This document shows positions 55,665 to 62,609 of a stretch of DNA of 64,000 nucleotides, piece by piece; the stretch's first letter is position 1; each line of letters opens with the position of its first letter. The DNA is from a virus (Duplodnaviria; Caudoviricetes), in the IMG/VR virus record IMGVR_UViG_3300012953_000012, positions 96,001-160,000 of that record; one strand, given 5' to 3'. A program made the translations under genes and the position numbers. Under the pieces are notes generated by a model that made no database searches, was not told where the DNA came from, and saw only the letters and a program-made list of their open reading frames with translations.

Positions 55665-56588
55665 CTATTTCTTCTTACTTGACCCGAATGTGATCTTACC
55701 CCCCACACCGATGACCCGTTCTTTTGGGGCTTCAGGTGCGGCCCACGGGTCAGGTTCCGGTGGGGGAGGTGGTCCGCCTCCGACCATGACCCCACCGGAA
55801 GGCATGTTCGTGTTGAAGGAGGGTCGTGGAGGCGTGGGAGCCTTGCGCTCGGGCCTGGTCGGGTGGGCGGCAGGCTTCTCAGGGATCATGTCGGCGGCGC
55901 GGGCACGCTTGATGGCGATGTCTCGTGCGTGCTTGCAGGGAACCTCTCGGGACGCACAAGTGCATTCCCACTGACCGTCATGGTGAAGGGTGACCTCATA
56001 GATGACCCGCTTGCCCTTCGCGTCTTTTGAGTCTCCCTGGACACGCCAACGCCCGATGATCTCGTCGGGGGTTTCCTCTGGGACATCAGGGATTTCCTGG
56101 GACCCATCCACATGAGTAGGCTGCGGAGATGGATCTGGGGTCACTGTTGTGGGGTCTACGGGGTCATTGTCGGGGATCGGGTCCTCAGGTGGTTCCGGCT
56201 CTGGTTCCGGCTCCTTCTGAAAGCCCGAAGGGGCCACCATGCCCATCATCTCGGCTGCTGCTCGTCCAACGTCGGCGTCCGTGACGGGCTCCCAGTCCCC
56301 ACGCTGGTCGCTGATCTCAATCGCCAACGCCTGTCGGAGCATGTCTGGGAAGTCGGGGAGGCCGAGGACCGTCGCCGTGTTCTCCGGGGCGAAGTCCGGG
56401 TTGTGAAGAAGGCGGTCCTCCTGGGTCAGGATCCGCTTGTTCCACTTGGTGCCTGCGCCCTTGCTGTTGCGACAGCCCACGTTCATGCACACGCCGCAAA
56501 ACATCTGCTTGAACTGCTCAGGTGCGAGCAACTTGCGGTGCTCACCGTCGTAGCAGCCGTCGAACAAGTCTGGGAGGGATTTACTCAT
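55665..56588 (-). CDS. SWIM zinc-finger protein
   Basis: YEVTL..WECTCASREVPCKHA SWIM motif, Pro-rich linkers, N-terminal CxxC. ATGA overlap with the SET gene. Confidence 0.8.
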   Translation of the reverse strand: MSKSLPDLFDGCYDGEHRKLLAPEQFKQMFCGVCMNVGCRNSKGAGTKWNKRILTQEDRLLHNPDFAPENTATVLGLPDFPDMLRQALAIEISDQRGDWEPVTDADVGRAAAEMMGMVAPSGFQKEPEPEPEPPEDPIPDNDPVDPTTVTPDPSPQPTHVDGSQEIPDVPEETPDEIIGRWRVQGDSKDAKGKRVIYEVTLHHDGQWECTCASREVPCKHARDIAIKRARAADMIPEKPAAHPTRPERKAPTPPRPSFNTNMPSGGVMVGGGPPPPPEPDPWAAPEAPKERVIGVGGKITFGSSKKK

Positions 56589-57157
56589 GACTCCTTCTTC
56601 TTGCGGAACCAGATCTGGTCGGGGCTGGTGTAGGTGAGAGTCAACTCCGTGCCGGGGGTGACGTCCTTCGTCGCGAAGAAATCCATGTAGCGTCGGTCGG
56701 TGTCCGGTTCGATGTAGGGTTGGCACCTCATGTTGGCCTCTTTCCTGGGGGCGTGGTTGTAGAGCATCCCGTTGCCCAGCACCAACGCTCGGATCTCGTC
56801 CTTGCGCCACGGATGGACCATGTGCTTGAGTAGCACCCCGCCCCGCCCCACATAGGGATGCAGCATGGTGCCTTGCAGCGTTCGCTCCAGAGGCATGTCA
56901 GGGGTGTCCAGGATGTAGGCGGCACAGCGTTCGACAAGCATCCCTTCCTGGAGAGGTGAGCGGCTGAAGACCCCCAACCCCTTCCCTGGAATGTGTTGGA
57001 TGTACAAGCCTCCGCCGTAGTGGACCAGGCGGGCCTCTCGGGCCTCTCGGAGCGGGGATCCACAAAACTCGCAAAGAGGGTTGTGGTCGGCACCCCTTCT
57101 CTCAACGATCTCGTTGACGACCCCGCAGTGGGCGCATGGGATCTGGCTGACGTCCAT
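56585..57157 (-). CDS. SET-domain protein-lysine methyltransferase with N-terminal zinc ribbon
   Basis: GKGLGVFS, GMLYNH, FFATKDVTPGTELTLTY SET motifs. CAHC..CEFC at the N-terminus. AGGAG RBS before 57157. Confidence 0.9.
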   Translation of the reverse strand: MDVSQIPCAHCGVVNEIVERRGADHNPLCEFCGSPLREAREARLVHYGGGLYIQHIPGKGLGVFSRSPLQEGMLVERCAAYILDTPDMPLERTLQGTMLHPYVGRGGVLLKHMVHPWRKDEIRALVLGNGMLYNHAPRKEANMRCQPYIEPDTDRRYMDFFATKDVTPGTELTLTYTSPDQIWFRKKKES

Positions 57158-57165
57158 CTCTACTC

Positions 57166-57663
57166 CTACGCTACGTTGAAGCCGCCACCCCGCACTACAA
57201 CGACATGGCGGCCTTCCCGCCATGCAAACACTACCCGCTGGAAGACCTCGACAGCCTCCGTAGGAACGCCGTCAGACAGGGGCGGCTCGTAGCACTCAGG
57301 CGGCCCGTGCTTGAGTCTACGGCCCTTTCCCTTACTCCCCCCAGGTCGGCAGAGCGGTTCGTCCCAGGTCAGGCACGCCTTCCCGATCTTGCACACGCCT
57401 TCATCGGAGGCCACGCGCCTGGCGCTGGCTCGGGGGTCTCGCCCCAACTCCCGCACCAGAGGTAGAAAACGCCCGTGTAGGGCGTGTGATAGGGACTCGG
57501 CGGTGATCTCCTTGACCCCCGCTTCCCAGGTGGTCCCCCGGAGCGATTCAAGTACCCCCCAGTGGTCCGCGTCCTCGGGGACCTCCTCCACCAGGAGCAG
57601 CACCTTTTCGGCCTCCCGTCCGGGAAGGGGGGAGGGGTCGGTGAGGTCAAGGATTCTCACCAC
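57166..57663 (-). CDS. hypothetical protein
   Basis: In the coupled operon. Cys residues in the C-terminal half. Confidence 0.75.
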   Translation of the reverse strand: MVRILDLTDPSPLPGREAEKVLLLVEEVPEDADHWGVLESLRGTTWEAGVKEITAESLSHALHGRFLPLVRELGRDPRASARRVASDEGVCKIGKACLTWDEPLCRPGGSKGKGRRLKHGPPECYEPPLSDGVPTEAVEVFQRVVFAWREGRHVVVVRGGGFNVA

Positions 57664-58252
57664 TCCCCCCTACTTGTTTGAAGAAGCGACTGGCTCCCCC
57701 GGTGTCTCCGAACCGATGGCCGTCTCCGTCCATGGGGAACATGCCGGTCTTCCCGGCTTCGCGCTTTGCGGATCGGCTCGACCCCGCGCTGTGCATCCCT
57801 CCAGCAAGCGAATCAGCATCCAATCGAGCAACGGGGCAATCCGGCTCGCAGATCCAGTTGGCGACAGTCTCCTTGCCTTCTGCGTCCCCATGCTCCACTT
57901 TGTTTTGAAGTCCTTCTGCTGTTCCGTAGACTCCGTGTTTCCCGAAGGCTCCTGTGCTTCCCGGCTTCATGCCCCCAGTAATAGCCTTCACCCTCTTGAC
58001 CCCACCACACCGACAACCTTCAAGGTGCTGGAGGATCACGTTGGCGGGCCATCTTCCTTTCGAGGTCGTAGCGACATAGGCGGGTCGCTCCTTTCGCCCA
58101 AACCCGCTCCAAACCTCCAGTCGGTTGATGGGTATCCGATCCGACCCGACCCGAGAGGCGTCGATGTTGATCCCCCCCGTCCCATGACGGAGGGTGTTGG
58201 CTGCGACGGTCCCTTCGGACAAGGGCTTCCGTAGGACGTGGATCATCCTCAT
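57647..58252 (-). CDS. stand-alone middle (putative specificity) segment of beta-class DNA methyltransferase, copy B
   Basis: RKPLSEGTVAANTL.HGTGG.NID, GRWPANV, WIC..DCPV, GASRFF. No DPPY or FxGxG motif. Confidence 0.85.
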   Translation of the reverse strand: MRMIHVLRKPLSEGTVAANTLRHGTGGINIDASRVGSDRIPINRLEVWSGFGRKERPAYVATTSKGRWPANVILQHLEGCRCGGVKRVKAITGGMKPGSTGAFGKHGVYGTAEGLQNKVEHGDAEGKETVANWICEPDCPVARLDADSLAGGMHSAGSSRSAKREAGKTGMFPMDGDGHRFGDTGGASRFFKQVGGSGENP

Positions 58253-58253
58253 T
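58233..58253. repeat. 21-bp direct repeat at start of MTase middle segment B
   Basis: AGGACGTGGATCATCCTCATT is identical to 59508-59528. Confidence 0.85.
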
Positions 58254-58857
58254 GTCGCCCCTTCACCCAGCACGCTCGACAGCGGGCCTCGTACATCCCC
58301 GTCGAGCCGACCTGCACCTGCTCCCCGGAGTCTTGATCAGGCAACCGGAACGAACGAGTGGCAGGCTTGCCACACACCTCGTCCCACTTCCACTGACCCC
58401 CCACGGTTCGTGTTCTTGTGGTCCCGTGTACGCATACGGCAGTCAGTTTGGTCACCTTGTCGGCCACCGCGAGAAGTCGTGCCATCGGCCCGAACGGCTG
58501 ACCATCAGAGTCGAGATCAAGCCCCGCGACGATGACCCGGCGACCTCTGTTTGCTTCTGACTCCAGCACGTCCACGATCTCGTCGTCAAGGAACTGCACC
58601 TCGTCCACTCCGATGACCTTCCCTGTCATGTAGAAGGGCTGTGTTCGGAGAAGGCGTTTGACGTGATCCACGTCCTTGACGGCGACCGCTTCCAGTGTGC
58701 CCCCAACGTGGGTCGCCAGCGAATCCTTGGAGTAGCGGTCGTCAATCGCGGGCTTCATCACAAGGGTGAACTGGTCCGCGATCTGGCACCGACGCAGACG
58801 CCGGATCAACTCCTCTGACTTGCCGCTGTACATGCAGCCTGTGATGGCCTCAAGCAT
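58249..58857 (-). CDS. tdk: thymidine kinase
   Basis: GCMYSGKSEEL P-loop, KPAIDDRY, VIGVDEVQF, GLDLD..PFG, YEARCRAC. Confidence 0.95.
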   Translation of the reverse strand: MLEAITGCMYSGKSEELIRRLRRCQIADQFTLVMKPAIDDRYSKDSLATHVGGTLEAVAVKDVDHVKRLLRTQPFYMTGKVIGVDEVQFLDDEIVDVLESEANRGRRVIVAGLDLDSDGQPFGPMARLLAVADKVTKLTAVCVHGTTRTRTVGGQWKWDEVCGKPATRSFRLPDQDSGEQVQVGSTGMYEARCRACWVKGRQ

Positions 58858-59527
58858 CCTCCTTCCCTCCGATCTGTTTGTAGAAGCGTGAGGCTCCTCC
58901 TGTGTCTCCAAAACCGGGGTCTCCCCGCACCTCATCTGCGGACAATGCCTGACCCAGTCCGTTGCCCCCGCCGTAGATCGTAGAGGTGGTGGAGATGTTG
59001 GCGGTGCGCCCGCCTGTGCTCTTGGTCACACCGCTCTGCTCATCCAATCGTGCGACAGGACAGCCGGATTCACAGATCCAGTTGGCTACCGTCTCCTTGC
59101 CGTCCTTGTCCGTGTGATTGAAGTAGGGGCGGTTCTGCTTCTCGGCAAAGCCGCCGTGCGCTGTAATGGGGGCGGCATGTCGGTGGGGTTTCGTCCCTCC
59201 AGTGATCCCCTTCACCTTCTTGACCCCAGCACGCCTACACCCGTCGAGGTGCTGGAGGACCACGTTCGCGGGCCACCTGCCGAGTTTCTGTGCGTCCGAA
59301 GGCACATAGGACGATCCCGCTGCGTACATGCCAGGGCCGTCACCGATGCCTGTCCTGTCAGCCATCAGGTTGTCCTTCCCTCGACGCACGACGCCTGTGA
59401 CAACGTGCGAGCCGTCACTGGAGATGCGGGATGCGTCGATATTCAACCCGCCCGTGCCGTGCTTCAAGGTGTTCGCGGCCACGGTGCCTTCGGAGAGAGG
59501 CTTACGGAGGACGTGGATCATCCTCAT
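58850..59527 (-). CDS. stand-alone middle (putative specificity) segment of beta-class DNA methyltransferase, copy A
   Basis: Same four conserved blocks as copy B with different intervening loops. ATGA overlap with the catalytic-half gene. Confidence 0.85.
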   Translation of the reverse strand: MRMIHVLRKPLSEGTVAANTLKHGTGGLNIDASRISSDGSHVVTGVVRRGKDNLMADRTGIGDGPGMYAAGSSYVPSDAQKLGRWPANVVLQHLDGCRRAGVKKVKGITGGTKPHRHAAPITAHGGFAEKQNRPYFNHTDKDGKETVANWICESGCPVARLDEQSGVTKSTGGRTANISTTSTIYGGGNGLGQALSADEVRGDPGFGDTGGASRFYKQIGGKEDA

Positions 59528-59528
59528 T
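59508..59528. repeat. 21-bp direct repeat at start of MTase middle segment A
   Basis: Identical to 58233-58253. Confidence 0.85.
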
Positions 59529-60126
59529 CCGGCTTCCTCCCCACACAAACCGGTTCCCACGAAGGTTTCAAAGCGGTTCCCCACCCATCCCAGCGTTGAG
59601 CCTTTTCAACAAGAGGGACGTGGTGCCTCTCCCCGCTCTCTTTCATGAAAGATCCCGGTCCCGCACCAAAACCTTGGCCTCTGTCCAGCGCACCCCTTTT
59701 CCCTTCAGTCTTTTGGGTTTTGTAGCGACCGTGATTCGGGCTTGTGGGATCAGGCCCCCCGTGGGGAACCCCACGCGCCGCCTTGTCCAGAGCCTTGCCG
59801 ATGTTCATGCTCTTGGGGAAGCCTGAGCCGTAGTTCCACGACTCGATCCGAAGGTCGGTGAACCCGGCCTCGGCCATAGCCGCAGCCATCCGATGATAGG
59901 TGCGAGTACCGGAGAACGCCTTGATGACCCCACCGGGTCGGAGCACTCGGTACACTTCGTCCCAGAGGTCGGCTGAGAAGGCGATGCCTGCGCCCTCGGC
60001 ATCCCACGTCTTGCCCATGAACGAGATGTGGTACGGAGGGTCGCAGATGAACGCTCCAACGAAGCCTTCCTCGTATTCACCGAGGACTTCCACACAGTCA
60101 CCGTGTCGTAGAGTCAGCCACTGCAT
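59524..60126 (-). CDS. N-terminal (catalytic, DPPY) part of beta-class N6A/N4C DNA methyltransferase
   Basis: HGDC, DPPY, RVLRPGG, YGSGFPKS, WGTALKPSWEP, then a stop at GRKPE. No SAM-binding FxGxG motif. Confidence 0.9.
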   Translation of the reverse strand: MQWLTLRHGDCVEVLGEYEEGFVGAFICDPPYHISFMGKTWDAEGAGIAFSADLWDEVYRVLRPGGVIKAFSGTRTYHRMAAAMAEAGFTDLRIESWNYGSGFPKSMNIGKALDKAARGVPHGGPDPTSPNHGRYKTQKTEGKRGALDRGQGFGAGPGSFMKESGERHHVPLVEKAQRWDGWGTALKPSWEPVCVGRKPE

Positions 60127-60134
60127 CGTGCCCC

Positions 60135-60959
60135 CTACAGTCCGAACAGGTCGTCGAGAGAAATGGTCTCGGGCTCGGCTTCGCGTGCCTCGGTGATCTC
60201 AGTGAGGTCGGAAGACACTTCGGCAGCGTTCCATCCAGCATCACGGGTGTTCCAGTACCGGACCCGGCCCTCGGCGATGGTCAGGTACTCCTTCTCCCGT
60301 TCGATGCCGATGAAGTCGTGCCCTGTCTGGACACAGGCGATGCCCGTAGTCCCGCTGCCCATGAACGGGTCCACCACAGGACCTACGTCCTTCGGCACAT
60401 CGTGGAGCAGCCGTGCCATGACGGCGTAGGGCTTCACGGTGGGGTGGACGTTGCGGCGCTTCTTCACCCGGTTCAGGCCGATGTCCTGACCTCCAGGTGC
60501 CTCGACATCCTCGCCTTCCTCGGTCGATGCGATGGCCCCCTGTGCGCCCCCGGACATGCCGAAGACCTTGAGGGGTAGGTGGTCCAGTCCGGCCTCACGT
60601 TCCTTGCGGGCGGCTTTGGCGACGTAGTGCATCTGGTCGGTCGTGCTGTCGGCCACCATGATGCAGTCGCGGACCTCAAAGCCAGTGTCCTCAGCGAAGC
60701 AGGCTCCGGTGTGTCCCGTGGGTTCAGCGGGGTCGTTGGCGAGCATCAGGTGTCCGCCCGGCTTCAAAGCCCGATGGGCCTCGGTGATCTCGTCGAGGGA
60801 GTCCAGAGAAGACTCCAGCACGATGCCGTGAACGCTCTCGTCCTCGTGCTGGGACCAGTCGTAGCCTTTGGTGGCGTAGACGAACACACCCTCGACCCCC
60901 TGGGGGTCACCGGGCGTGATCATGTCACGCAGGTAGTCAATCAGTTCGGGGTTCATCAC
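60135..60959 (-). CDS. SAM-binding part of beta-class DNA methyltransferase with degenerate catalytic motif
   Basis: YVAKA..ERE, HPTVKP, DPFMGSGTT, FIGIERE. Retains RALKPGG and GFEVRD but has no DPPY. Confidence 0.9.
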   Translation of the reverse strand: MMNPELIDYLRDMITPGDPQGVEGVFVYATKGYDWSQHEDESVHGIVLESSLDSLDEITEAHRALKPGGHLMLANDPAEPTGHTGACFAEDTGFEVRDCIMVADSTTDQMHYVAKAARKEREAGLDHLPLKVFGMSGGAQGAIASTEEGEDVEAPGGQDIGLNRVKKRRNVHPTVKPYAVMARLLHDVPKDVGPVVDPFMGSGTTGIACVQTGHDFIGIEREKEYLTIAEGRVRYWNTRDAGWNAAEVSSDLTEITEAREAEPETISLDDLFGL

Positions 60960-61106: not shown

Positions 61107-61120
61107 GTTGGTCTGTCTAT
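61107..61120 (+). promoter_or_regulatory. TAG-N5-CTAT motif variant
   Basis: GTTGG TCTGT CTAT upstream of 61158. Confidence 0.35.
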
Positions 61121-61157
61121 GGTGACCCCCCATCGTAGACGACGAAGGAACACCCCG

Positions 61158-62609
61158 ATGCCCCGCTACCCAGCACCACAGGTCCAGTACAAGAAGGACG
61201 AACGAGCACGAGCGAAGCACATCGCGGCGGCTCGACGCGACTTCCGAGCCCTGTTGAAGGCGGTGGCACCGGACGCGGCGAAGATCAAGGCGCTCCACAA
61301 GCGAGATCAAAACAAGCAGAAGCGTGCGTTGGTCAAGAGCCTCAAGGGGCGGGGCGACGTGCGTGCATTTCTCGACAAGTACATGGGCACCGAGTCGGCG
61401 AGTCCGAAGGCGTACTCGTGGCGAAACACGGGGCAGTATCTGGTCCGGGACGCGGCGCTTGGGATCAAGAGCCTCCGGGATGTCCTGCCTGCACTGGACA
61501 AGGTGACGAGCAACGGCTTCCAGGCATTGACCGTCGAGGAGTTTCAAGCACCCCTGCGGTCTACGATCCCAGCCCTGCTGCGGGAGTACCTGCCCCAGAC
61601 GGTCGAGGTCAACGTAGACGAGAACGGGACCATCCAGCGGGTCACGGACAGGTTCAACAACGAGTACAAGACCCTGGCAGTCAAGATCGCCCACCAGAAG
61701 GCGCTCCTGAAGAAGTACAACGCCATCGCCAAGCGGGTGAAGCGGGACCTCAAGTCCTCGGACGAGATCACCCGGCTCTCGGCGCTGATCACATCGATCC
61801 TCATGGAGACCGGCATCCGACCCGGCAAGCGAGGCAACGGCGTGGTCAAGACCATCGGCGACAAGGAAGAGTTCATCGAAACCTTCGGAGCCGTGACCCT
61901 GGGGCCTGGGCACGTCAACTTCGTCCGGGACAACTTCGTGGAGTTGAGTTTCCTGGGCAAGATGACCGGCCAGAACACGGCCACGCTGTCCGACCGGGTG
62001 ATCATCAAGGCGCTCCAGGACTATGTGAACAACGCCCTCAAGTCGGGGAGCAAGTACGTCTTCGTGGCCGACGATGGCTACGAGTACACATACAACGACC
62101 TGTACAAGTACTTCCAGAAGCACTTCAAGGGGATTGACCCCACGGACTGGCGCAAACTCAAAGCCTCCGAGACCGTGTTCGATGCCATCCAGGAAGAACA
62201 GGAAGCCCTGTACAGCAGGATTCTGGCCTTCGCAGACAGCGAGGGTGATGATCTCATGGACCGGGTGACCGAAGAGATCGCAGCGACGTTGGACCGAGCC
62301 ATCGCCAAAGCCCAGGTCGCCCTGTCTCACGACAAGGCCACGACGACGAAGAAGCAGTACATCAACCCAGAGGTACTGCTTCGGTTCCTGAGCACCGCGA
62401 CGATGGGAGGCGCGACGTTCCGCGATGCCATCCTCGCAGGGAAGCCGACGTTGGCGTTTGACCCGCAACGGTTCATCGAGGTCGCCAGCGCAGCAGCCGT
62501 AGGCAAGAGAGCCAGCCGCCGTCTGCTCCTCGCCGGGGGTGCGGCCATGACCTTGGAAGAGATGCTGGACGTGCTGGCGGACTCACTGATGATTGAAGGG
62601 GAGAGGTAG
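61158..62609 (+). CDS. type IB DNA topoisomerase
   Basis: Catalytic pentad in order: GIRPG (R), FLGK (K), DWRK (R), LSH (H), QYINP (Y). AAGGA RBS supports start 61158. Confidence 0.85.
   Translation: MPRYPAPQVQYKKDERARAKHIAAARRDFRALLKAVAPDAAKIKALHKRDQNKQKRALVKSLKGRGDVRAFLDKYMGTESASPKAYSWRNTGQYLVRDAALGIKSLRDVLPALDKVTSNGFQALTVEEFQAPLRSTIPALLREYLPQTVEVNVDENGTIQRVTDRFNNEYKTLAVKIAHQKALLKKYNAIAKRVKRDLKSSDEITRLSALITSILMETGIRPGKRGNGVVKTIGDKEEFIETFGAVTLGPGHVNFVRDNFVELSFLGKMTGQNTATLSDRVIIKALQDYVNNALKSGSKYVFVADDGYEYTYNDLYKYFQKHFKGIDPTDWRKLKASETVFDAIQEEQEALYSRILAFADSEGDDLMDRVTEEIAATLDRAIAKAQVALSHDKATTTKKQYINPEVLLRFLSTATMGGATFRDAILAGKPTLAFDPQRFIEVASAAAVGKRASRRLLLAGGAAMTLEEMLDVLADSLMIEGER

What the first reader, a model, noticed from the sequence alone, without database searches (positions are those of the whole stretch)
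57647..60959. DNA methyltransferase split into SAM-binding, catalytic and two alternative specificity genes
Seen: a beta-class amino-MTase normally runs DPPY..ALKP.EP..RKP-[GTVAAN..GRWPAN..ASRFF]-Y.AKA..HPTVKP..DPFxGSGTT in one chain. Here it is cut into separate ORFs in shuffled order. 60959-60135 has the SAM-binding motif but no DPPY. 60126-59524 has DPPY but no FxGxG and stops at GRKPE. The missing middle segment is encoded twice as stand-alone genes (59527-58850 and 58252-57647), and both restart with MIHVLRKP, duplicating the junction strand. The two copies share four conserved blocks, with mostly synonymous differences at the 5' end, but differ completely in three loops. Each starts in an ATGA overlap with the gene before it, which argues against pseudogene debris. 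Established: in beta-class MTases the region between the catalytic and SAM motifs is the target-recognition region, and these enzymes act as dimers using it in trans. Two-chain MTases (M.AquI) and multispecific phage C5 MTases are known. Inference: a heteromeric MTase with exchangeable specificity subunits, similar in logic to type I HsdS, giving the phage several anti-restriction methylation patterns from one catalytic core.
Basis: partly seen in the sequence, partly recalled or inferred. Interest (0 to 1): 0.88.

Follow-up and report, generated by a model that had tools for sequence, protein, structure and literature searches.

The report
Modular multi-gene phage DNA methyltransferase
An uncultured marine jumbo phage builds its DNA methyltransferase from separately encoded parts: a catalytic half, a cofactor-binding scaffold and several interchangeable DNA-reading subunits. 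These parts form large, unannotated protein families, and this could let one enzyme core protect phage DNA at several sequence motifs.

Summary

**The parts.** The minus-strand row is:
- C, 60959-60135
- N, 60126-59524
- T-A, 59527-58850
- thymidine kinase
- T-B, 58252-57647

N carries DPPY and ends at the strand ...WEPVxVGRKP. Each T starts with a copy of that strand and carries three variable loops. C is more than the missing SAM half. It is a DPPY-less copy of the catalytic half (N') fused to the SAM-binding half.

**Evidence that the parts are real and work together.**
- N, T and C are each large metagenomic families with fixed termini, and dN/dS is 0.08-0.35.
- Natural fusions link all three: many T-C, one T-T-T-C, several N-T-C and one C-N.
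- The 205-kb genome fragment holds 1 C, 2 N and 3 T. Relatives hold up to four T genes in one locus.
- T loops reassort like cassettes.
- AlphaFold places the first strand of T with confidence only when C is attached.

**Verdict.** The best reading is a heteromeric beta-class amino-methyltransferase with plug-in specificity subunits. Activity and distinct target motifs are untested. I found no description of it in the searched literature or in deposited phage genomes. Other first-stage notes flagged the same genes in this genome only, not on other DNA.

The parts
60135..60959 (-). C: constant scaffold, 274 aa and acidic (pI 4.6). It is an inactivated copy of the catalytic half (N'), with VHGIVLESSL in place of ..DPPY and no beta7 or TRD. 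N' runs directly into HYVAKA, HPTVKP (motif X), DPFMGSGTT (motif I) and GIERE (motif II).
   Evidence: PF01555 positions 148-220, 72 bits; none of the best 120 homologues, nor C itself, has DPPY at the aligned site; H44, H70, G84-A85-C86, HPT.K and DPF.GSGTT are at least 90% conserved; C HMM E 5e-141; dN/dS 0.08.
59524..60126 (-). N1: catalytic half, 200 aa. It carries LRHGDC..CDPPY, LRPGG and GFPKS, then a variable insert, and ends at strand beta7, ..ALKPSWEPVCVGRKPE. It has no SAM motif. It starts 8 nt after the stop of C.
   Evidence: PF01555 positions 4-89; 2469 homologues; nearly all of the best 120 carry DPPY and end within a few residues of RKP; none has FxGxG; N HMM E 2.5e-86.
58850..59527 (-). 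T-A: stand-alone target-recognition subunit, 225 aa and basic (pI 9.5). It starts with a copy of strand beta7 (MRMIHVLRKP), then has conserved blocks (GTVAAN..GTGGLNID, GRWPAN..LQHLDGC, W.C..GCPV..LD.QSG, GGASRFYKQ.GG) separated by loops V1-V3. Its start overlaps the stop of N1 as ATGA.
   Evidence: 1453 homologues; best 120 about 200-225 aa with the same termini; no Pfam; invariant H93, C97, C152, C156; T HMM E 2e-86.
58249..58857 (-). Thymidine kinase gene lying between T-A and T-B and translationally coupled on both sides (8-nt overlap with T-A, ATGA overlap with T-B). It is not a methyltransferase part but belongs to the same gene row.
   Evidence: (PF00265, E 3e-42); the same TK|T coupling is seen in L006 and L014.
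57647..58252 (-). T-B: second stand-alone target-recognition subunit, 201 aa (pI 9.6). It has the same framework as T-A with different V1-V3 loops. Its start overlaps the stop of TK as ATGA.
   Evidence: T HMM E 1e-73; conserved DNA blocks of 102, 95 and 71 nt at 77-81% identity to T-A.

Best explanation
The locus encodes a modular, multi-polypeptide beta-class DNA amino-methyltransferase. The DPPY motif points to N6-adenine as the most likely target. It has three kinds of parts.

- **N** is the catalytic half-domain (strands beta4 to beta7, with DPPY).
- **C** is the constant scaffold. Its C-terminal part is the SAM-binding half (motifs X, I and II). Its N-terminal part, N', is a dead copy of the catalytic half that has lost DPPY and strand beta7.
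- **T** is a basic target-recognition module, probably zinc-stabilised, that begins with its own copy of strand beta7.

Proposed assembly (inferred):
1. T plugs into C by donating its first strand to the incomplete sheet of N'.
2. N pairs with the SAM-binding half of C to form the single active site.

This resembles the asymmetric 'division of labour' dimer of beta-class enzymes, with the redundant parts stripped away.

T is a separate gene, and one genome carries several T paralogues whose loops are reassorted. Different T subunits could therefore take turns on the one C, probably with the N encoded beside them, and give the phage several methylation specificities against host restriction.

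Shown here: homology, fixed gene boundaries, selection, gene fusions, copy-number variation and loop reassortment. Inferred: the docking geometry, enzymatic activity and distinct motifs.
For: 1. **Collinear mapping.** N, T and the C-terminal part of C map in order onto one-chain relatives (uncultured megaphage P0001 and mycobacteriophage methylases).
2. **Fixed termini.**
   - Nearly all of the best 120 T homologues (1453 hits) start M[RK]xxHxLRKP and end GGASRF[YF]KQxGG.
   - Nearly all of the best 120 N homologues (2469 hits) carry DPPY and end at ..WEPVxVGRKP; none has FxGxG.
   - None of the best 120 C homologues, nor C itself, has DPPY at the aligned site, and none has a TRD between N' and HYVAKA; the SAM motifs are at least 90% conserved.
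3. **Natural fusions.**
   - All 35 T-containing C homologues longer than 320 aa are T-C fusions.
   - P0365 is T-T-T-C.
   - P0456, P0397 and P0497 are N-T-C single chains that keep N' and both beta7 copies.
   - P0441 is C-N, the same gene order as in the window.
   - P0456 is a real gene next to dnaB in a related phage.
4. **Conserved neighbourhoods and coupling.** N|T or N|T-C overlaps recur in the window and in L006, L013, L014, L017, L018 and a 103-kb contig.
5. **Copy number.** This genome has 1 C, 2 N and 3 T in 205 kb. L014 has 4 T in one locus. The dnaB-dnaG site holds 1 T here and 2 in L007.
6. **Loop reassortment.** V1, V2 and V3 form 95 distinct triples among 97 proteins, with four-gamete quartets for every pair of loops. 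L007 T1 combines the V1 loop of T-A with the V3 loop of T-B.
7. **Selection.** dN/dS is 0.08 for C and 0.20-0.35 for N and T. Between the window and L006, C is 96% identical but N only 73% and T-A 66%. C is the constant part.
8. **Structure prediction.**
   - T alone gives mean pLDDT 52.7, with residues 1-10 at 33 and no strand.
   - The T-C fusion P0198 gives mean pLDDT 82 and pTM 0.79, with residues 2-8 forming a strand at pLDDT about 97.
   - In that model the SAM half superposes on CcrM, RsrI and M.BceJIV (rmsd 1.5-3.5 A), but no alignment carries N' along in the canonical position. This suggests that site may be free for N, though the coordinates could not be inspected.
9. **Charge.** T is basic (pI 9.4-9.6) and C acidic (pI 4.6).
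10. **Precedent.** Beta-class enzymes work as dimers in which one subunit recognises DNA and the other catalyses (PMC7544214).
Against: - No biochemical or methylome evidence exists. Complex formation, activity and distinct motifs for T-A, T-B and the third T are all inferred.
- The docking model rests on one AlphaFold model whose coordinates I could not inspect. N could not be co-folded with C.
- In T-T-T-C fusions only one of three donor strands could occupy N' at a time, which the simple model does not explain.
- V3 type 1 occurs in 35 of 97 T proteins, so V3 may not be a specificity loop.
- Loop variation could reflect pressure other than DNA specificity.
- N also varies (a variable insert, two paralogues), so specificity may lie in N|T pairs rather than in T alone.
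- The N match to PF01555 is just under the curated cut-off (26.5 against 26.7 bits).
Confidence: 0.7

Rival explanations
1. The parts do form one methyltransferase, but the T paralogues are not alternative specificities. They would act together or redundantly, for example as general DNA-binding clamps. Their loops would vary because hosts sense or inhibit them (immune evasion), or because the loops are weakly constrained surface linkers.
For: - The loops are glycine- and serine-rich and modelled with low confidence.
- V3 type 1 is shared by 35 of 97 proteins.
- V2 can be deleted altogether in some T genes (L006 T-B', L007 T1, L014 fourth T).
- T-T-T-C fusions carry several T modules on one chain at once.
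Against: - Loops occur as discrete types kept at 60% identity or more across otherwise diverged frameworks, and they recombine as units. That is cassette behaviour, not drift.
- In one-chain relatives this segment sits where beta-class enzymes carry the TRD (PMC7544214).
- Tandem TRDs on one chain are exactly how multispecific phage C5 enzymes encode several specificities (references).
Confidence: 0.15
2. The modules have been taken over for a function other than DNA methylation. T could be a free DNA-binding regulator or restriction decoy, C a SAM-binding or SAM-sequestering protein, and N an inactive relic.
For: - C lacks the catalytic motif across the whole family.
- T genes sit in replication gene rows (dnaB|T|dnaG) away from N and C.
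- T has no Pfam or NCBIfam family.
Against: - DPPY is kept in nearly all of the best 120 N homologues, and the SAM motifs in the C family are at least 90% conserved.
- Single-chain N-T-C and C-N fusions exist.
- N|T translational coupling is conserved.
- Inteins are inserted in C of relatives, which is typical of important enzymes.
Confidence: 0.08
3. The stops are sequencing or assembly errors or recent pseudogenisation, or a single chain is restored by programmed frameshifting at the N|T junction.
For: T-A lies in the -1 frame relative to N, overlapping by 4 nt. One-chain relatives exist.
Against: - The same boundaries recur in independent assemblies from different samples and in more than 100 clusters per family.
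- dN/dS is well below 1.
- Each gene has its own start with a purine-rich Shine-Dalgarno-like run upstream.
- The junction GGAAGCCGGAATGAGG has no slippery heptamer.
- C lies upstream of N, so no read-through could restore the normal order.
- T-B and the third T are not adjacent to any N.
Confidence: 0.02

Closest known systems
One-chain beta-class amino-methyltransferases with a large central TRD (Pfam N6_N4_Mtase; for example mycobacteriophage DNA methylases and the 516-aa enzyme of uncultured megaphage LR745208.1; solved relatives CcrM, M.RsrI, M.BceJIV)
   Same: - Same motifs in the same order when N, T and the C-terminal part of C are laid end to end: GDC..DPPY, LKPGG, GFPKS..EP....RKP, GTVA.N..GTG.LNID, GRWP.N, a cysteine pair, GGASRFF, Y.AKA, HPTVKP, DPF.GSGTT.
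- The SAM half of the model superposes on CcrM, RsrI and BceJIV.
   Different: - Here the chain is divided into separate genes.
- The junction strand is duplicated.
- The SAM half is fused to a dead second copy of the catalytic half.
- The TRD is multi-copy.
- No solved structure contains the T segment.
Type I restriction-modification methyltransferases (HsdM2 HsdS1), with exchangeable and recombining HsdS specificity subunits
   Same: - Specificity lies on a separate polypeptide that docks onto a constant catalytic core.
- Variable recognition segments sit between conserved blocks and reassort by recombination.
- Genes are translationally coupled (compare the hsdM/hsdS overlap, PMC3510504 abstract).
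   Different: - T shows no match to HsdS families (no Pfam hit).
- The catalytic fold is beta-class, not gamma-class, and is itself split.
- No HsdR partner was seen among the genes called around the locus.
- T is about 200 aa with three short loops rather than two TRDs of about 150 aa joined by coiled coils.
Multispecific C5-cytosine methyltransferases of Bacillus phages (SPR, phi3T, rho11s, H2)
   Same: - A phage enzyme that gains several specificities by carrying several TRDs on one catalytic core. References: Wilke 1988, Guenthert and Reiners 1987, Lange 1991, as listed in PMC8936443.
- The relative P0365 (T-T-T-C) has three T modules in tandem on one chain.
   Different: - Those are C5 enzymes (PC motif) in a single polypeptide.
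- Here the chemistry is amino-methylation (DPPY), and in this genome the TRDs are separate genes dispersed over more than 90 kb.
Natural two-chain methyltransferases M.AquI and M.EcoHK31I
   Same: An active methyltransferase fold is reconstituted from separately translated polypeptides (PMC3404938).
   Different: - Both are C5 enzymes made of two pieces with a single specificity.
- They have no exchangeable TRD subunits and no dead half-domain.
Asymmetric beta-class dimers: M.EcoP15I Mod2, CcrM2, MettL3-MettL14, MTA1-MTA9
   Same: - Labour is divided between a DNA-recognising protomer and a catalytic protomer.
- Some are heterodimers (PMC7544214); that MettL14 and MTA9 are the catalytically inactive partners is from my own knowledge, not from that text.
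- N' plus T would play the recognising role, and N plus the SAM half the catalytic role.
   Different: - In those enzymes both protomers are complete folds on their own chains.
- Here the proposed recognising protomer has no SAM half, the catalytic protomer has no TRD, and one polypeptide (C) would span both.
- This mapping is inferred, not shown.

Membership tests
Beta-class DNA amino-methyltransferase (Pfam PF01555 N6_N4_Mtase) | Catalytic motif IV (D/N/S)PP(Y/F/W) | tested here: met
   CDPPY is present in N1 and SDPPY in N2. The motif is kept in nearly all of the best 120 N homologues. It is absent from C.
Beta-class DNA amino-methyltransferase (Pfam PF01555 N6_N4_Mtase) | SAM-binding motif I FxGxG with motif X upstream and an acidic motif II downstream | tested here: met
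   C carries HPTVKP, DPFMGSGTT and GIERE. PF01555 positions 148-220 match at 72 bits against a cut-off of 26.7. These motifs are at least 90% conserved across 121 sequences.
Beta-class DNA amino-methyltransferase (Pfam PF01555 N6_N4_Mtase) | Motif order IV..VIII - TRD - X - I on one polypeptide folding into one seven-stranded domain | tested here: not met
   The motifs lie on three polypeptides, and the gene order is C, N, T. The order is restored only by laying the parts on a one-chain relative. This is a split derivative of the family, not a standard member.
Beta-class DNA amino-methyltransferase (Pfam PF01555 N6_N4_Mtase) | DNA methyltransferase activity | not testable with these tools
   Needs co-expression and methylome reading.
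Type I R-M specificity subunit (HsdS) | Homology to HsdS (Methylase_S): two TRDs separated by conserved helical regions, partnered with gamma-class HsdM and with HsdR | tested here: not met
   T-A and T-B have no Pfam or NCBIfam family. Their PHROG match is to 'DNA methyltransferase' phrog_3008. The partners are beta-class fragments. The resemblance is analogy only.
Multispecific phage C5-methyltransferases | C5 chemistry (PC motif IV, ENV motif VI) with tandem TRDs in the variable region of one chain | tested here: not met
   The motifs are those of amino-methyltransferases (DPPY), and no C5 family was hit. Tandem T modules on one chain do occur in relatives (P0365). The resemblance is analogy only.
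Stand-alone T (TRD) protein family defined here | About 200-225 aa; starts M[RK]xxHxLRKP..GTVA.N; has GRWPAN; invariant H..C...C...C; ends GGASRF[YF]KQxGG; no DPPY or FxGxG | tested here: met
   T-A and T-B match the T HMM over positions 1-209 of 210 (E 2e-86 and 1e-73). Termini and invariant residues are as.
DPPY-less C family defined here | VHG...E in place of ..DPPY; beta6 runs into HYVAKA within 17-20 residues (no beta7, no TRD); intact motifs X, I and II | tested here: met
   (C HMM positions 2-276, E 5e-141).

The most novel reading that the evidence does not exclude
This is a plug-in methyltransferase. A constant scaffold (C) presents an incomplete dead half-domain as a socket. Interchangeable recognition subunits (T) dock into it by donor-strand complementation with their first beta-strand. 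A separately encoded catalytic half (N) completes the only active site on the SAM half of the scaffold. It would be a stripped-down, asymmetric version of the beta-class 'division of labour' dimer. Three loop cassettes per T reassort by recombination at conserved blocks. A phage population could therefore generate methylation specificities combinatorially, and each phage could methylate as many motifs as it has T genes.
Probability: 0.35. Interest if true: 0.9.

Novelty: new variant of a known kind. Interest (0 to 1): 0.8.

Why it matters
**For methyltransferase biology.**
- Separate, swappable specificity subunits are known for type I enzymes, and tandem TRDs for phage C5 enzymes. To my knowledge, and in the literature searched here, neither has been described for beta-class amino-methyltransferases.
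- A methyltransferase fold split between its catalytic and SAM halves, with a dead half-domain acting as a docking socket, has likewise not been described.
- If the model holds, it would be a natural experiment on the 'division of labour' principle of beta-class enzymes.

**For annotation.** It would assign a function to thousands of metagenomic proteins that currently have no family. T has no Pfam or NCBIfam model.

**For phage ecology.** It would explain how large marine phages might evade many restriction systems with one enzyme core.

**For engineering.** It would offer a modular scaffold for building methyltransferases with chosen specificity.

**Testability.** The number of methylated motifs on these phage genomes in long-read metagenomes should follow the number of T genes.

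Tried and rejected
1. **Near-identical DNA in deposited phages.** None found. A single-protein scan of IMG/VR with T-A confirmed no locus.
2. **Solved structures for the T segment.** None by sequence profile; only chance hits at E above 1.
3. **Folding T alone.** Low confidence (pLDDT 52.7), so it was not used for fold searches.
4. **Sequencing error, pseudogene debris or frameshift fusion.** Rejected because boundaries are conserved across assemblies and families, selection is purifying, the junction has no slippery site, and the gene order is C-N-T.
5. **C as simply the missing C-terminal third of a normal enzyme.** Rejected. Its first 110 residues or so are homologous to the catalytic half: C HMM positions 54-106 hit the N-halves of one-chain enzymes, and the N HMM hits N' weakly. 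They are conserved.
6. **N' plus the SAM half as an ordinary, merely inactive, complete fold.**
   - Not supported by the model. VIA-align superposes only the SAM half on beta-class structures, and Foldseek alignments spanning both halves have rmsd of about 20 A.
   - This rests on one predicted model.
7. **Close relatives of C in deposited phage genomes.**
   - None; all hits are below 60% identity, to ordinary active methylases.
   - The mycobacteriophage homologues of T are one-chain enzymes.
8. **Literature searches.** Searches for split or multi-subunit beta-class or jumbo-phage methyltransferases found no description.

Full report
**Setting.** The window is bases 96001-160000 of a 205,564-base IMG/VR virus record. 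CheckV rates it 46% complete, and G+C is about 62%. It is therefore a fragment of a jumbo phage. The finding lies in a minus-strand row of replication and nucleotide-metabolism genes. A divergently transcribed gene at 61119-62609 matches the eukaryotic-type topoisomerase I catalytic core (PF01028).

**Observation.** The four ORFs are as described.
- C (60959-60135, 274 aa) has HPTVKP, DPFMGSGTT and GIERE, but VHGIVLESSL where DPPY is expected. Pfam N6_N4_Mtase matches only profile positions 148-220 (72 bits).
- N (60126-59524, 200 aa) has LRHGDC..CDPPY and ends ..ALKPSWEPVCVGRKPE. Pfam matches positions 4-89 at 26.5 bits, against a cut-off of 26.7.
- T-A (59527-58850, 225 aa) and T-B (58252-57647, 201 aa) both begin MRMIHVLRKPLSEGTVAAN and end GGASRF[YF]KQxGG. 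They are 51% identical (E 2e-59), with conserved blocks and three loops that do not align.
- Neither T has a Pfam or NCBIfam family.
- A thymidine kinase gene (PF00265) lies between T-A and T-B.

The junctions are tight:
- C stop to N start: 8 nt.
- N|T-A and TK|T-B: ATGA overlaps.
- T-A|TK: an 8-nt overlap.
- The two T starts share 21 identical bases.

Over codons 1-36 of T-A versus T-B, pS is 0.62 and pN 0.10.

**Mapping on a one-chain enzyme.** The best phage-database hit of T-A is a 516-aa protein of uncultured megaphage LR745208.1, P0001. HMMs built from the metagenomic families place N (positions 4-185), T (4-201) and C (172-240) along it in that order. N and T overlap on the same seven codons, the strand ..EPIVMARKP. 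The junction strand is therefore duplicated in the split system. In class I methyltransferase terms this strand is beta7, an assignment I make from established knowledge of the fold (see PMC7544214). Mycobacteriophage homologues are also one-chain.

**The pieces are families, not debris.**
- T-A finds 1453 proteins at E ≤ 0.001. The best 120 are about 200-225 aa, cover the whole query and carry no Pfam domain. Nearly all start M[RK]xxHxLRKP and end GGASRF[YF]KQxGG.
- N finds 2469 proteins. Nearly all of the best 120 carry DPPY near residue 30 and end within a few residues of ..WEPVxVGRKP. None has FxGxG.
- C finds 6511 proteins. None of the best 120 (identity down to 43%), nor C itself, has DPPY at the aligned site. 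Most read VHG...E there. All run from strand beta6 into HYVAKA within 17-20 residues, so they have no beta7 and no TRD.
- Positions conserved at 90% or more in C include H44, H70, G84-A85-C86, GFE.RD, HPT.K, DPF.GSGTT and GIE.

C is therefore more than the missing C-terminal third. Its first 110 residues or so are a conserved, inactivated copy of the catalytic half, which I call N'. The homology shows in two ways: the C HMM (positions 54-106) hits the N-halves of one-chain enzymes, and the N HMM hits N' weakly.

**Selection.** Against orthologues in two independent marine assemblies (L006, L014), dN/dS is 0.08-0.09 for C, about 0.20 for N, and 0.20-0.35 for T-A and T-B. The neighbouring TK gene gives 0.25. 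Between the window and L006, C is 96% identical (dS 0.29), but N is 73% and T-A 66% (dS above 1). C is thus the constant part, while N and T diverge faster or are exchanged.

**Gene fusions tie the parts together.**
- Among the best 120 C homologues, 35 of the 36 longer than 320 aa carry a T module directly in front of C, starting with the same first strand.
- The search of 1.84 billion cluster representatives adds further architectures:
  - P0365 (899 aa) is T-T-T-C.
  - P0399, P0372, P0404 and P0413 have two or three T modules before C.
  - P0456 (636 aa), P0397 (563 aa) and P0497 are single chains N-T-C. They contain DPPY, both copies of the junction strand, N' and the SAM motifs.
  - P0441 (461 aa) is C-N, the same gene order as in the window.
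- P0456 is a called gene that translates exactly. It lies directly after dnaB in a related phage contig.
- Some relatives have inteins (Hint, LAGLIDADG) between N' and the SAM half of C.

Because N-T-C chains keep N' and both strands, these features are parts of the working unit and not side effects of gene fission.

**Copy number and neighbourhoods.**
- The 205-kb fragment holds one C and two N. N2 is a 195-206 aa ORF, depending on the start chosen, about 29 kb downstream of the locus. A first-stage note reads its two neighbouring genes as holB and holA; I did not check them. N2 also ends ..GRKP.
- The fragment holds three T. The third lies between dnaB and dnaG, 31 kb upstream of the window.
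- An HMM map of fetched loci gives these arrangements:

| Locus | Arrangement |
|---|---|
| L006 | C, N, T, TK, T |
| L014/L015 | C, N, T, x, SET, T, TK, T, T |
| L007 | dnaB, T, T, dnaG |
| L016 | dnaB, T, dnaG |
| L013 | T, N, T inside a ribonucleotide reductase cluster |
| L017 | T, TK, N-like, N-like, T-C, T, N |
| L018 | N, T, TK, T-C, N, T, C, T |
| L020 | several T, then T-C |

- N is followed by T or T-C, with overlapping stop and start, in seven independent contexts.

**Loop reassortment.** I extracted the three loops of 97 T proteins and clustered them at 60% identity.
- This gave 43 V1 types, 41 V2 types and 31 V3 types, in 95 distinct triples.
- Nearly every loop type with four or more members has a different partner combination in each member.
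- Four-gamete quartets exist for all three pairs of loops.
- L007 T1 carries the V1 loop of the window's T-A and the V3 loop of T-B.
- L014 T1 carries the V2 loop of T-B.
- Conserved blocks of 102, 95 and 71 nt (77-81% identity) between T-A and T-B could serve as crossover sites.
- V2 is absent from some T genes, and V3 type 1 is common (35 of 97). The loops may therefore not be equal in function.

**Structure.**
- T-A folded alone, with 66 aligned sequences, is poor: mean pLDDT 52.7, with residues 1-10 at 33 and not forming a strand.
- The natural T-C fusion P0198, folded with 109 aligned sequences, is good: mean pLDDT 82 and pTM 0.79. Residues 2-8 form a strand at pLDDT about 97, and the conserved T blocks reach 88-93.
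- The first strand of T is thus placed with confidence only when C is present. I infer that it completes the sheet of N', which lacks beta7, but I could not read the coordinates.
- In the fold searches, residues 290-405 superpose on the SAM halves of CcrM, M.RsrI and M.BceJIV (73-92 residues, rmsd 1.5-3.5 A, 25-40% identity).
- Residues 160-290 (N') match generic class I methyltransferases.
- No beta-class structure aligns across both halves. Foldseek alignments that span both have rmsd of about 20 A.
- In the model, therefore, N' does not occupy the canonical place beside the SAM half.
- T has invariant H93, C97, C152 and C156, which I read as a zinc site.
- T is basic (pI 9.4-9.6), C acidic (pI 4.6) and N near neutral.

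**Most likely mechanism.** Three observations need explaining:
- DPPY is maintained in N, which has no SAM site.
- The SAM motifs are maintained in C, which has no DPPY.
- All parts occur fused in relatives.

The simplest working unit is N + T + C with one active site. [quoted passage not shown] I propose that this system is such a dimer with the redundant parts removed:
- N plus the SAM half of C forms the catalytic unit.
- N' plus T forms the recognising unit. T is held by its donated first strand.

Several T paralogues would then share one C and give several specificities. This follows the logic of type I HsdS subunits and of the tandem TRDs of multispecific Bacillus-phage C5 enzymes (references listed). 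In this genome the modules are separate genes; in relatives they lie in tandem on one chain. Each docking step in this account is inference.

**What is known.**
- The only natural multi-chain methyltransferases named in the literature I could search are the C5 enzymes M.AquI and M.EcoHK31I (PMC3404938).
- A comparative review of jumbo phages describes split RNA polymerase and DNA polymerase III but no split methyltransferase (PMC7824862).
- Deposited phage genomes hold no close relative of C.
- PHROGs lists T only as a partial match to a 'DNA methyltransferase' family. In that family (phrog_3008) T matches positions 2-83 and C matches positions 143-213.
- Other first-stage notes on this same genome flagged the second N and the third T. 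I confirmed both independently.

**Verdict.** The feature is real and conserved, and it extends far beyond this genome. I read it as a new architectural variant of a known kind of enzyme, with 0.7 confidence for a heteromeric methyltransferase with exchangeable T subunits. My confidence in the specific docking model is lower, about 0.35. Activity and motif differences remain to be shown.

Noticed in passing
window 56585-57223 (-) and 57166-57663 (-): A SET-domain protein (PF00856, E 8e-8) with an N-terminal cysteine-rich segment follows a conserved 165-aa protein that has no family in Pfam or PHROGs. The pair moves as a block relative to the T genes in relatives: after T-B here and in L006, but between the first and second T in L014.
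   Followed up: partly
window 61119-62609 (+): A 496-aa protein matches the eukaryotic-type DNA topoisomerase I catalytic core (PF01028, E 3.5e-13). It is transcribed divergently from C. The same neighbour is found in L006 and L014.
   Followed up: partly
proteins P0424, P0375, P0487 (relatives of C): Inteins (Hint and LAGLIDADG domains, inserts of about 400 aa) lie between N' and the SAM half of C-family proteins. The dnaB of L020 also carries an intein.
   Followed up: partly
L013 3271-7582: In a 337-kb contig, an N|T pair and a further T in two pieces sit between fragmented ribonucleotide reductase genes (large subunit as 275 + 143 aa, small subunit as 108 + 185 aa). A 164-aa protein covering only about the first half of C (P0207) is on the same contig, which suggests that C may be split further in that lineage.
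   Followed up: no
L017 3609-5004 and L018 1948-2765: Some N-like genes lack the DPPY-bearing start. The first 34 or so HMM positions lie in a separate short frame upstream, or the site is degenerate (TPPT, SLELMG). These could be inactive N paralogues, frameshifts or small inserts.
   Followed up: no
C protein, window 60135-60959 (-), residues H44, H70, C86: The dead half-domain N' has its own residues conserved at 90% or more (VHG, GGH, TGHxGAC) that are absent from active N-halves. They could form a metal site or a contact surface for T. No function has been assigned.
   Followed up: no
L004 1216-2193 (own genome, G000:C1 about 203.9-204.8 kb): A separate 325-aa methyltransferase has the opposite motif order (DPFAGG.. 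before SCPPYW). It is therefore an independent, unsplit enzyme in the same phage.
   Followed up: no
protein P0020 (T of L007/L008): NCBI labels one copy as a hypothetical protein of a Planctomycetaceae MAG. This is a possible hint to the host or a binning artefact. The contigs come from marine metagenomes, including Tara.
   Followed up: no
L006 12060-12762 and L014 11634-12648: An AcrVA2-like protein (PF26125) lies about 5 kb downstream of the locus in relatives. The window was not checked for it.
   Followed up: no
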